Shown: positions 10,346 through 46,117, counted from the first letter of the stretch. The stretch: 64,000 nucleotides of DNA from Octopus vulgaris (GCA_951406725.2 OX597818.1:27652001-27716000), one strand, 5' to 3'. The notes: generated by a model not told the origin, from the letters alone. Numbers and translations: made by a program.

Positions 10346-10387
10346 ATGAGGAAAATGCTTATGCTACTTTGTCACTTGTATTTGATA
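10346..10387 (+). CDS. Type-A tyrosine-motif micro-exon (42 nt): DEENAYATLSLVFD
   Basis: ttttcatag acceptor, gtaagt donor, phase 1-1. Confidence 0.8.
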
Positions 10388-10570
10388 GTAAGTATAATTA
10401 ATGCCTATAAGTAAAAAGAACTATAGTTCATGTTACTCTCAAAATGATATTTTACCTTTCACCTTTCACTTGTTTCAGTCACTTCTCTGCATCCATAGTG
10501 GTGTACAATCTTGAAGAGTTTTAGTTGAATAACTGAACCCTCCTGCTGCTTTTTCTATCAATTTTTTTTA

Positions 10571-11055
10571 CCGTAAATCCTCGAGTATAGTTCGCCCTTG
10601 AGTATAATATGCAGGGGACTTTTAGTGGGCTGTACCTCTGATAAACCTAAATCTTGTGTATAATACGCACCCCTTCTCTAACTTGAGTCAAGGAGGGCTA
10701 TATAACGTCCTTGGTTTGTAAAAATGTGTATGGTAACATCCTTTATTATTATTATTTTCTATATATAACATAATGCAAACGTGTAGCTTTTTTGTGCATT
10801 TTGTTTGCAGAAAATAAAGAAGTAACAGTAATAACGTTTAATAAATGTTGCTTACTGAAAGTTATGGATGATTTAAGGTATTTTCACGACCGACATCACA
10901 AAATGCGTCTGAATAAACATTGCCGGACAGCAAATAGGGACTTGGACATTGCTTAGAAAATAATTTTCATTTTTGACTTTGTATATAGTACGCACTAGGG
11001 ATTTTGACCTTTAAATTTTGGAAAAAAAGTATGGGTTATACTCGAGGATAAACGG
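10571..11055. mobile_element. Tc1/mariner-superfamily (Tc2-like) MITE
   Basis: TIRs ta-CCGTAAATCCTCGAGTATA and TATACTCGAGGATAAACGG-ta; absent from sister modules near 13330 and 14195. Confidence 0.85.
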
Positions 11056-11382
11056 TACTAAACAACTCAGTTACTCAGGGGAGGTAAAGTAATCAGCACT
11101 GATTGTCAAATGTTGGGAAGATATGCATACACAAAGACAGATATGCACACACAAACACAGTGTGTGTGTGTGTGTGTGAGAGAGAGAGAGAGAGAGAGAA
11201 AGAAAGAAAGAGAAGAGATGACAGGCTTCTTTCAAATTTTGTCTACAAAATCCACATGATTTGATTGACATGGGGATACAATAGGAAGCATATACCAGAG
11301 GTGTTACACAGTGGGACAAAATCCCAAACCACATGGCTGAAGAGCAATCTTTTTACAACATTTAATATATACATATAATATA

Positions 11383-12612
11383 TAGGGTCATTCCATAAAT
11401 AATGCAGTTTTTTTTATACTTCTATTATTTTTCAAAATCAAGAGAAACAAAGTTTTTTTCATCTAAAATATACTCTCCTTTATTTTCTACAATGCTCTTC
11501 CATCTATCTGGTAGACTTGCAAGGCCCCTCTTCCAAAATTCACTTGTCTGTGACAAAGAAAATCCCCCAGTACTGTTTTGACTTCATCTACGGAATTTAT
11601 ATTTTTTCCATCCAAATGATTTTGAAGACCACGGAATAAATGATAATGAGATGGTGCAATGTCCAGCGAATATGATGGGGGGGGGGTCCCATTTTAACTG
11701 CCCCAGCTTTTGGAATCTTATTCTTGCTGTATGTGGCCTGATGGAAGAACACCTTTTGTCTTGAAACCAAAGATGGTGGTTTTTCTACAATCAAGCTGCA
11801 GTAGATTTTTGTTATTGTTTGCTTTGGATTTAAAAGTTCAAAGTGGACTAAACCTTTCATATCCCTCCAAACAGATAACAACACCTTATGTGGGGGAAGA
11901 CCTTTAGTCTGGGGTGCCATTGTTTCTTATTTCCCTACTCACTGTCCTTGGTGCTTGACATTTTTATAGAGAATCCATTTCTCATCACCAGCCACAATTC
12001 GGTCCATAAAGGTTCATTTGTGAGATGTGACAGCAAAGAAGATCACACATTCACTCTTTGCATGCAATTAAATTTGGAAAGTTTGTGAGAAACCCATTAA
12101 CCCAAATTGTTCTCTTTTCCAATGGCACACAGCTGTCAATGAATAGTTGAATGACCAAATCCAAGTCTCTCTGCTAATTCCTCAACAGTTACGGTGGAAT
12201 TTTGTTCCACCAGAGTTTGCAGAACATCCTTGTTGAGCTTTACAGATCTTTCAGGACAAAGCTCATCTGCAAGGGTGCAGTTTCCGGCTCGGAATTTCTG
12301 GAACCACCATTGACACTGGTTTATGCTTATTGTCTGATCCTCATATACTGCATTAATATTCCTTGCACTTGTTGCTGCGTTTTTGCCTTTATTGAACTCA
12401 TAAAGCAAAATATGCCGAATATGTTCCTTTGTCACTTTGAAAAAATAACTGTTAGAATTGAAGTGCACTCTTCAAAACTTGCACTAAGAGTAAGGACAAG
12501 GTAAAATTACTACCTGCTTTTATAGCAAGTTGACGCAGGTAGCTTATCCCATTCCCCACTAAGATTTAGTCCATGCAATTGAAAAAACTGCATTATTTAT
12601 GGGATGAACCAA
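11383..12612 (-). mobile_element. Degenerate mariner transposon
   Basis: TIRs gggtcattccataaataatgcagttttt and aaaaactgcattatttatgggatgaacc; transposase fragments HIRHILLYEF..QWWFQKFRAG and KVLLSVW. Confidence 0.85.
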
Positions 12613-13120
12613 TAAAATATGTATTTTATGCACACACACACACACACACACACACACAATATCATTATGATCGTTATTTTTTCTGTTTTCTAAGCTGGCA
12701 TGTGTAAGGTGGTTCAACAGGATTCAATGAATTGGAGGACCAGATCTTATTTCAGTGTTTCAATGCTAAGGAGAAAATGCATGCGATCATATGTCTGACT
12801 TGGGTGTAAACAGTAACAACAACAATAGGACCGATCATCTTCCCATAGTTAATATTGAATATAAAAAGTCAAAGAGAAAGTGATCTTTTTCTTGATTTAT
12901 CACACTTACATTGGTAATTGAATTTTGTAAGTGTTTCTTTATATGTTATTTTGTTTTTGTTTTATTTTATTTCAGTATACTTTAGTATATCCTGATATTT
13001 TGTTATAATACTATAAACGTTCTTTAATACATCTGATCCTAGAAACAGTTCATTTCAGATGTCATATACCACACATATATAGACAATAAACATATTTATT
13101 TTACATTTTTATTTTCATAG

Positions 13121-45200: not shown

Positions 45201-45660
45201 TCTTCATCTGGGAAGGTTTTGGCATTTATAAGCAGCCATCTCTCCCTTTGCCTTGCAAGGATGTAGTCAATTTGGCTGGTATGTTGGCCCGATCGGTAAG
45301 TGACTAGGTGGCTGGTAGGTTTCCTGAAGTTAGTGTTGCAAATCATAAGATTATTTGCATCGTAGAACTCCAGCAGCCTGGTTCCCTCCTCGTTTCGGGA
45401 GCCATAGTCATAGCCTCCATGTATGCCATGGAAGCCCCCAGCATGTCGTCCAACGTGACCATTGAAGTCACCAGCCACAAAGATAAGGTCTCTGTCGTTC
45501 GTCAACGAGGTAGTCTGCAGTAGAGTGTCATAGAATCGGTCTTTCTGTCCATCGGGTAGCCCCGACTGAGAAGCATAGGCTGATATAATGGTTGCTAAAC
45601 TATGATGAAGCACTAATCTAATCTTAAGTATTCTGCCACATACCCTGATTACCTCAATTA
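42278..45660 (-). mobile_element. Young, 5'-truncated RTE-clade LINE (AP endonuclease, RT, internal PHD finger)
   Basis: (CAT)n tail; GDFNGH, SQIDY and QHRLV endonuclease motifs; GVHQGSVLSP and YADD RT motifs. Confidence 0.95.
42887..45613 (-). pseudogene. RTE ORF interrupted by one in-frame TGA at 43295
   Basis: 772-aa ORF continues in frame as TAMLHGSETW.. to 42887. Confidence 0.9.
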
Positions 45661-45776
45661 TATATATAAATATATAATGTATTTTATTTTGTTAATTACT
45701 TTCTGTGCCACATCAAAATATTTAGAGCAGCCTCTCCAAACAATAATATACCCAATTTTTATTCAATTTCTTGAAG

Positions 45777-45823
45777 TTATGCCGAAGCCAGTGGGTCCAA
45801 ATACTTCGAATTGATACCACCAA
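45777..45823 (+). pseudogene. Type-B exon with a 16-nt deletion (47 nt) and intact splice sites; frameshift gives xMPKPVGPNTSN*
   Basis: tttcttgaag acceptor, gtaagt donor; ancestral frame YAEASGSKYFELIPP still readable. Confidence 0.75.
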
Positions 45824-46075
45824 GTAAGTACAATTAATATTGTTAGTACACAGCATGATCTTAGAAATCATCTTAAACAGACAGAATATGAACAACCATA
45901 AAATGTATCACTCTCTAACTTTGGGCAATTAATGTGTGTACATGTATGTTTGTATGTTCGAGAGTGTTTGAGTGTATCTCCTTAGTGTTTATTATGTTAG
46001 TATCAGCACAATACCAATACAATTCAAATGTTATTCATGCCCATGTTTTTAAATCATTTTTTAAATTTCTTGAAG

Positions 46076-46117
46076 ACATAGAATGTGCTTATGTTAATGT
46101 TCCCCAGAAACCTGGCA
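46076..46117 (+). CDS. Type-A micro-exon (42 nt): xIECAYVNVPQKPG
   Basis: tttcttgaag acceptor, gtaagc donor. Confidence 0.7.

What the first reader, a model, noticed from the sequence alone, without database searches (positions are those of the whole stretch)
10346..46117. Symmetric phase 1-1 exons allow combinatorial splicing of signalling motifs
Every intact array exon starts and ends in phase 1, so any subset can be skipped without a frameshift. Motif classes are ordered along the gene: ITIM-like YATL/I first, then alternating double-Tyr B exons and YxN A exons. Inference: isoforms could vary the number and type of SH2 docking sites, a Dscam-like diversification acting on the intracellular output rather than on recognition. 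Multivalent pYxN arrays drive LAT-Grb2-SOS condensates in vertebrates, so exon number could tune valency.
Basis: inference. Interest (0 to 1): 0.7.

Follow-up and report, generated by a model that had tools for sequence, protein, structure and literature searches.

The report
Octopus receptor with snap-in signalling exons
An octopus cell-surface receptor builds its inner tail from 21 copied mini-exons, 15 of them still intact and removable without breaking the reading frame; database models of sister genes skip such exons, so splicing likely varies the number of predicted signalling docking sites, much as in human PECAM-1 and shrimp Dscam.

Summary
The array is real. It encodes the cytoplasmic tail of an Octopus vulgaris Ig-superfamily type I receptor whose signal, four Ig and TM exons lie upstream of the window. 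There are 21 duplicated units of two classes (42 nt; 60/63 nt): 15 intact, 2 doubtful, 4 dead. All usable exons are phase 1-1 and every subset stays in frame, but so are the Ig and TM exons, and the symmetry is inherited from two ancestral exons, so it permits skipping without showing it. Database models of paralogues in O. bimaculoides and O. sinensis skip whole exons, singly and in combination. For this gene I saw one spliced junction (B6 to A6/A7) and no skip. Corrections: no canonical ITIM or ITAM; the 'ITIM-like' and YxN exons are one class; skipping is cassette-type, not mutually exclusive; the exons evolve near neutrally overall (omega about 1), with modest Tyr/Asn constraint. New lead: each B|A junction forms an ITAM-like Yxx[LM]-x8-YxN[VI] pair. 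Cassette-spliced tyrosine tails are known (PECAM-1, Penaeus Dscam, Botryllus FcoR); the tandem-duplicated array in an unstudied octopus cluster is a new variant. Condensate tuning is untested.

The parts
1241..1259 (+). Juxtamembrane exon J1, 19 nt, phase 1-2 (not skippable alone)
   Evidence: conserved in 6 paralogous loci
4368..4384 (+). Juxtamembrane exon J2, 17 nt, phase 2-1; restores phase 1 for the array
10346..10387 (+). I1, 42 nt, intact, YATL
13121..13162 (+). I2, 42 nt, intact splice sites, Tyr replaced by Cys
13971..14012 (+). I3, 42 nt, intact, YATI; 95% identical to I1
14921..14959 (+). A0, doubtful: normal donor deleted, weak donor gives 39 nt, Tyr replaced by Cys
20071..20112 (+). 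A1, 42 nt, intact splice sites, Tyr replaced by Gly
21229..21288 (+). B1, 60 nt, intact, two Tyr, second YLEM
21529..21570 (+). A2, 42 nt, intact, YVNI
27214..27273 (+). B2, acceptor AG>AA; usable as 51 nt from a second AG at 27223; one Tyr (YIEM)
   Evidence: the same downstream AG is used in paralogue units
27642..27675 (+). A3, dead: 8-nt deletion, 34 nt
31880..31942 (+). B3, 63 nt, intact AG/GT, upstream tract altered; YAEA and YLEL
32898..32939 (+). A4, 42 nt, intact, YLNV
36488..36550 (+). B4, 63 nt, intact, YAEV and YLEL
36803..36844 (+). A5, 42 nt, intact, YANV
38140..38202 (+). B5, 63 nt, intact, 98% identical to B4
38268..38309 (+). A6, 42 nt, intact, identical to A7; upstream intron only 65 nt
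39766..39828 (+). B6, 63 nt, intact, YAEA and YLEM; seen joined directly to an A6/A7-type exon in one contig
40081..40122 (+). A7, 42 nt, intact, YANV
45777..45823 (+). B7, dead: 16-nt deletion, 47 nt, frameshift
46076..46117 (+). A8, 42 nt, intact, YVNV; last intact array exon
46522..46563 (+). A9, dead: donor GT>CT
47003..47044 (+). A10, dead: acceptor AG>AA and in-frame TGA
58349..58654 (+). Terminal exon: x-Tyr-Gln-stop in phase 1, then about 300 nt of 3' UTR to an AATAAA at 58649 (end inferred from the signal)
   Evidence: homologous exon behind 5 paralogous arrays; matches the 'YQ' ends of database models

Best explanation
The array is the cytoplasmic tail of an octopus Ig-superfamily type I receptor, built by tandem duplication of two small phase 1-1 exons, and its intact exons likely behave as cassettes that are mostly included but can be skipped, so that isoforms would differ in the number of predicted phosphotyrosine docking sites. 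Shown: gene anatomy, exon inventory, frame, family of paralogues with separately expanded arrays, one spliced B-A junction, whole-exon skips in paralogue database models. Inferred: the tail is disordered; after ligand binding a non-receptor kinase phosphorylates the acidic Tyr sites; YxN recruits Grb2, YxxM recruits PI3K, Yx[T]I/L may recruit an SH2 phosphatase, and the B|A junction pair may engage a tandem-SH2 kinase. Output strength is then set at two levels: genomically (array length and decay differ per paralogue) and by skipping. Whether skipping is regulated is unknown.
For: Signal, 4 Ig and TM exons upstream, in frame; database model CAI9722592.1 links them to the array; Pfam Ig domains in 5 of 5 family proteins; AlphaFold model of a paralogue has a TM helix at 782-806 and a tail without secondary structure, pLDDT 21-28 from residue 811 on. 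All subsets in frame. O. bimaculoides LOC106874069: 8 of 8 RefSeq models have distinct tails, made by dropping an I-type (14 aa), a B (20 aa) or an A (14 aa) exon, alone or I+B, with two ends; these exons are distinct in sequence. LOC106869178: 7 of 7 current RefSeq models distinct; O. sinensis LOC115229375: 3 of 3 distinct. One contig in 1 of 4 laid runs joins B6 directly to an A6/A7-type exon. Acceptors are mostly AAG (A at -3 in 0.86 of 36 A/I-class and 0.96 of 24 B-class non-redundant units), weaker than the usual YAG (recalled). 63 of 78 units in five loci keep splice sites and frame. A-class Tyr and Asn codons show 10 changes against 16.3-21.1 expected.
Against: No skip junction seen in this gene; only 551 bases could be examined, with contigs of runs that are guessed to be RNA. 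Paralogue isoforms are automated models; chains may combine unphased junctions, and skips across near-identical repeats (LOC106869178) may be mapping errors. Other paralogues show little skipping: 1 of 5 models in LOC106879981, none between the 2 models of O. sinensis LOC115212119. Exons change about as fast as flanking introns, omega 0.95 and 1.04; the B-class second Tyr is not significantly protected (P 0.09-0.18). 6 of 21 units here are damaged and 2 more intact ones lack Tyr. No binding, phosphorylation or tissue data.
Confidence: 0.6

Rival explanations
1. Duplication churn with constitutive inclusion: a frame-neutral B-A cassette amplifies and decays by unequal crossing-over; intact exons are normally all included, and skipping is low-level noise from weak micro-exon splice sites with no regulated role.
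For: omega about 1 and exon rate equal to flank rate; units copied with their introns at 90-93% identity; arrays expand separately in each gene (tree); 15 of 78 units damaged; phase 1-1 holds for Ig and TM exons too; the only junctions seen were B-to-next-A.
Against: Three exon classes are skipped in models of two other species; Tyr/Asn codons are somewhat protected.
Confidence: 0.25
2. This particular paralogue is decaying: it has lost four Ig exons and several tail exons, and only a few array exons are used.
For: 4 Ig exons against 6-8 in neighbours; 6 of 21 units damaged; only one junction seen, at depth 3.6; no second database model in its cluster.
Against: Signal, Ig, TM, J1, J2 and terminal exons are open and in frame; the GC donor of Ig7 is shared with another paralogue; the youngest duplicates (B4-A7) are all intact.
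Confidence: 0.1
3. True Dscam-type mutually exclusive choice: one or two exons per class are picked per transcript, giving a stochastic cell-identity code.
For: Tandem homologous exons of fixed length, as in Dscam clusters (resemblance only).
Against: Paralogue models keep most exons and drop one or a few; B and A alternate rather than sit in separate blocks; introns are 240 nt or longer except one.
Confidence: 0.05

Closest known systems
PECAM-1/CD31 (PMC2132561, passages read)
   Same: Ig-superfamily type I receptor; tail encoded by several small exons (9-16), exons 10-16 alternatively spliced; Tyr-bearing exons 13-14 dock SHP-2, and skipping one changes function.
   Different: PECAM-1 tail exons are few and not described there as tandem copies; here up to 21 homologous units of two classes, with dead copies, no canonical ITIM, and many YxN and YxxM sites. 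No orthology is claimed.
Penaeus monodon Dscam endodomain (PMC6851185, passages read)
   Same: Seven skippable tail exons give at least 384 tail isoforms carrying SH2-binding and ITAM-type motifs; Daphnia can include or exclude ITIM or ITAM.
   Different: Different protein (9Ig-4FN3-Ig-2FN3 with mutually exclusive ectodomain clusters); here 4-8 Ig, no FN3 hit, one exon per Ig domain, and diversity also from a multigene cluster.
Botryllus FcoR and Hydractinia Alr receptor families (PMC11507803; bioRxiv 2022.03.04.482883; passages read)
   Same: Lineage-specific clusters of type I receptors whose tyrosine motifs vary between paralogues and by splicing; many FcoR cores have an acidic residue at -2, as the octopus I-class exons of paralogues do.
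   Different: Those carry canonical ITIM, hemITAM or ITAM and have allorecognition data; the passages read describe no tandem micro-exon array. No function or tissue is known for the octopus family.
CD22/Siglec-like multi-Ig receptors (ESM Atlas top feature hit 0.96, automatic name)
   Same: Multi-Ig ectodomain, single TM, multi-tyrosine tail.
   Different: A lead only: no ITIM here, sialic-acid site not tested, structure hits all TM under 0.5; PDB sequence hits are generic Ig proteins at E 2e-6 or weaker.
LAT (PMC10525366; PMC13729540; passages read)
   Same: Unstructured membrane-anchored tail with several pY-x-N Grb2 sites; LAT-Grb2-SOS forms condensates.
   Different: LAT has a short ectodomain and a fixed set of tyrosines; here a full Ig receptor with up to 6 YxN. 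Condensate formation was not tested.

Membership tests
Ig-superfamily type I membrane receptor | Ig domains in the ectodomain | tested here: met
   Pfam I-set and Ig_3 above cut-off in 5 of 5 proteins; four Ig exons upstream of the window
Ig-superfamily type I membrane receptor | Signal exon, one TM helix, cytoplasmic tail in frame | tested here: met
   TM helix 782-806 in the paralogue model; signal peptide judged by eye from sequence
ITIM receptors (PECAM-1, CD22, Siglec type) | [I/L/V/S]xYxx[I/L/V] in the tail (consensus as) | tested here: not met
   0 in the full tail and 0 of 120 pairwise junctions; I1 and I3 have Asn at -2. Some paralogue models have 1-3 matches.
Siglec/CD22 | N-terminal V-set domain with the sialic-acid-binding Arg | not tested
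   V-set scores stayed below cut-off and fell on other domains; the Arg was not examined
ITAM receptors | Yxx[I/L]x6-9Yxx[I/L] | tested here: not met
   0 in the tail, 0 of 120 junctions, 0 in 11 family proteins. A relaxed form allowing M/V is met by 25 of 120 junctions, all B-to-A, and 12 of 18 adjacent intact B-A pairs in five loci
ITAM receptors | Exon boundary splits the first tyrosine module (PMC4536121) | tested here: not met
   the boundary lies in the 8-residue spacer
Dscam | 9Ig-4FN3-Ig-2FN3 architecture | tested here: not met
   no FN3 family at E <= 0.01 in 5 of 5 proteins; 4-8 Ig
Dscam | Mutually exclusive exon clusters in the ectodomain | tested here: not met
   tblastn finds at most one exon per Ig domain in the three genes whose ectodomains were fetched
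Receptors with cassette-spliced tyrosine tails (PECAM-1, crustacean Dscam endodomain): works like | Tail motifs on separate exons that are skipped in frame | tested here: inconclusive
   possible for all subsets; present in paralogue models; not observed for this gene
LAT-type condensate scaffold | Three or more Grb2-type YxN sites on a disordered membrane-anchored tail | tested here: met
   6 YxN; paralogue tail predicted unstructured
LAT-type condensate scaffold | Phosphorylation-dependent Grb2-SOS condensation | not testable with these tools
   needs phospho-peptides and reconstitution

The most novel reading that the evidence does not exclude
The octopus cluster encodes a splicing-programmed signalling code: each B|A exon junction assembles an independently evolved ITAM-like tandem-tyrosine module whose second half is also a Grb2 site and whose first half is often a PI3K site, and cell-type-specific skipping across at least seven paralogues sets how many such modules a receptor carries, crossing or not crossing a condensation threshold.
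Probability: 0.15. Interest if true: 0.75.

Novelty: new variant of a known kind. Interest (0 to 1): 0.45.

Why it matters
Cephalopod immune or adhesion receptors with signalling tails are poorly described; I found no paper on this family. It is a natural series of tails with different numbers of docking sites on one scaffold, so it could test in a living lineage whether motif valency is tuned by splicing or merely drifts. The B|A junction pair suggests a convergent, splice-built ITAM-like module. If skipping proves to be noise, the locus is still a clear case of how signalling tails grow by exon duplication.

Tried and rejected
No RNA holder listed: the run search with the 3' UTR gave no holder on record as RNA; the four runs laid are guessed RNA. 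In one search the intron and flank bins had no cover except for a dispersed repeat at the 3' end; this is not counted as evidence, and contig depth was not used to rank genes. The joined contig starts at the first base of B6 and is 135 nt (63+42+30), the shape an assembly graph gives where several exons join one acceptor (k=31 recalled); too indirect to count as skipping. The database model of this gene (P0001) omits A4, A6 and A8, but it also has a wrong-looking N-terminus, a shortened Ig7 and an extra exon that patches the B7 frameshift, so I did not use it as an isoform. Two searches with the tail found no further isoforms of this gene. I first suspected the juxtamembrane region of a receptor phosphatase: rejected, the gene ends at 58349. 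ITIM, ITSM, hemITAM and strict ITAM: none. Whole-exon purifying selection: not found. The AlphaFold model was low in confidence overall (mean pLDDT 50), so no fold search was run. No complex prediction was run, since the binding in question needs phosphotyrosine. Paper supplements were not read; octopus transcriptome tables may list these loci.

Full report
What the gene is. The window is G000:C5:27652001-27716000. Comparing the 100 kb upstream with the next paralogue revealed a signal exon (C5:27589294), four Ig exons (27594310, 27597386, 27621466, 27623654) and a TM exon (27626753). One Ig exon matched at 100% a database model named for Octopus vulgaris, CAI9722592.1, which runs on into the array. 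Two small exons in the window (1241-1259, 4368-4384) lead in, and a terminal exon at 58349 ends the protein. Family proteins hit only Ig families above cut-off, apart from one unrelated tail hit. An AlphaFold model of an O. bimaculoides paralogue, weak overall (mean pLDDT 50), shows a TM helix and an unstructured tail. This gene has 4 Ig exons; full-length relatives have 6 to 8.

The observation. Profiles built from seed exons find 21 units between 10346 and 47044, plus one faint remnant near 17730 that I do not count. 15 of 21 are intact, 2 doubtful (A0, B2), 4 dead (A3, B7, A9, A10). With the 16 usable exons, all 65,536 subsets are open to one stop and give 57,344 distinct tails; the full tail is 275 aa with 20 Tyr, 6 YxN and 3 YxxM.

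Why symmetry proves little. The Ig exons (279, 312, 252, 309 nt) and the TM exon (99 nt) are phase 1-1 as well. The I and A exons align as one 42-nt class, differing at Tyr+2 (Thr or Asn, Ser in one paralogue), and B is a second class of 60 or 63 nt. Units were copied with their introns, at 90-93% over 300 nt for the youngest. Alternation is therefore the footprint of duplicating a B-A cassette, and only frame-neutral exons survive such duplication (inference).

The family. I mapped tail arrays in seven loci on C5 and four partial copies on C28 and C31. For counts I kept five loci and dropped the near-identical copies (one C5 locus, C28, C31) and one locus with a different tail type. 42 of 47 A/I-class and 21 of 31 B-class units are intact at the homologous boundaries. 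Trees group most young units by gene, with the I-type units of all genes apart, so arrays grew largely after gene duplication. Relatives exist in Argonauta (44%) and cuttlefish (35%), the latter with its own YxN repeat tail; bivalve nephrin-like proteins and other multi-Ig proteins follow at under 30%.

Is there skipping? In O. bimaculoides LOC106874069, 8 of 8 RefSeq models differ in the tail: an I-type, a B or an A exon is dropped, once I and B together, with two alternative ends; three older models repeat the A and B skips. These exons are distinct, so mis-mapping is unlikely. LOC106869178 has 15 distinct tails among 15 listed of 16 models, some across near-identical repeats and so less safe. 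O. sinensis LOC115229375 has 3 of 3 distinct. Against: 1 of 5 models skips in LOC106879981, and the 2 models of LOC115212119 share one tail. These are automated models, likely drawn from few RNA data sets. For this gene, contigs of four guessed-RNA runs were laid on 38050-38600: one contig in 1 of 4 runs (depth 3.6) has five differences from B5 and the end letters of B6, joined directly to an A6/A7-type exon. A loose end in the same run shows a paralogue's B-to-A junction. No skip was seen. Most models keep most exons, which is cassette splicing, not mutually exclusive choice.

Motifs. No ITIM, ITSM, hemITAM or strict ITAM occurs in the tail or across any of 120 junctions (consensus from passages). 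I1 and I3 read N-A-Y-A-T-L/I; paralogues mostly have an acidic residue at -2, closer to the FcoR core motif than to an ITIM. YxN is the Grb2 SH2 preference (passage); a Met-containing Tyr motif docks PI3K in DAP10 (passage). The second Tyr of B and the Tyr of A lie 12 residues apart across the junction, giving Yxx[LM]-x8-YxN[VI]: 25 of 120 junctions, all B-to-A, and 12 of 18 adjacent intact pairs in five loci. The classical ITAM has L/I at both ends, a 7-residue spacer and its exon boundary inside the first module (passage), so this is at most convergent. The spacing is one inherited event and carries no statistical weight.

Selection. On 40 gap-free intact A/I units and 21 B units, parsimony gives omega 0.95 and 1.04, and exon sites change about as often as flanks. 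A-class Tyr and Asn codons show 10 changes against 21.1 (other exon A/T sites) or 16.3 (flank A/T sites, P 0.02); the second Tyr of B shows 1 against 2.8-3.4, not significant. Sites are few, units were found by similarity, broken units were left out, and gene conversion is not modelled. This fits disordered linkers with weak motif-only constraint, and fits near-neutral churn almost as well.

Mechanism. Most likely (0.6): a receptor whose tail is a modular docking string, phosphorylated after ligand binding, with motif number set by array length per paralogue and by cassette skipping. Anatomy and frame are shown; skipping is shown only as paralogue models; phosphorylation, partners, regulation, tissue and condensates are inferred.

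Compared with what is known. Penaeus Dscam has seven skippable tail exons and at least 384 tail forms (passages); PECAM-1 splices tail exons 10-16 with functional effect (passages); Botryllus FcoR swaps ITIM and hemITAM by splicing (passages); LAT forms Grb2-SOS condensates (passages). The principle is known. What I could not find in print is this octopus family or its duplicated micro-exon tail: searches (listings seen; one review read in passages) and by six locus ids (0 papers); the library lacks most subscription journals and I read no supplements.

Verdict. Observation confirmed, interpretation partly supported, new variant of a known kind, interest 0.45.

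Noticed in passing
window 48599-49341 and 47886-48602 versus 51434-52150: A 743-bp near-perfect palindrome and a 717-bp inverted duplication at 99% identity, next to a transposase-like element (mariner label recalled) inserted right after dead exon A10; fold-back rearrangement or assembly error.
   Followed up: partly
G000:C31 (three places) and C28, loci L101-L120: Near-identical partial copies of a paralogue's tail array; in the three where J2 was found its donor is GT>TT. Two adhesion-GPCR database models on C31 contain this tail (P0139, P0222); probably model artefacts in segmental duplications, but a real tail capture was not excluded.
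   Followed up: partly
L017, C5:27621717: The Ig7 exon has a GC donor in this gene and in the paralogue at 27.94 Mb, GT in the one at 27.80 Mb; the database model of this gene cuts the exon short instead.
   Followed up: partly
P0068 (cuttlefish), P0061 and P0008: Homologues have different repeat tails: 20-aa YxN repeats in cuttlefish, YAxV-N-K-type repeats in Argonauta and in the octopus locus at C5:29.3 Mb, suggesting repeated independent tail amplification. Exon structure in cuttlefish unknown.
   Followed up: no
window 38203-38267: A deletion left only 65 nt between B5 and A6, against 240-252 nt in sister cassettes; this may force skipping or retention.
   Followed up: no
window 2090-3643 and 4770-6191: Long open frames (518, 215 and 258 aa) that look like retroelement proteins inside the J1-J2 and J2-I1 introns (label recalled).
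   Followed up: no
B-class units in four loci (for example window 27223): Where the normal B acceptor is lost, an AG 6-9 nt downstream keeps the frame (51 or 54 nt), and database models use it; built-in alternative acceptors may add small length variants.
   Followed up: partly
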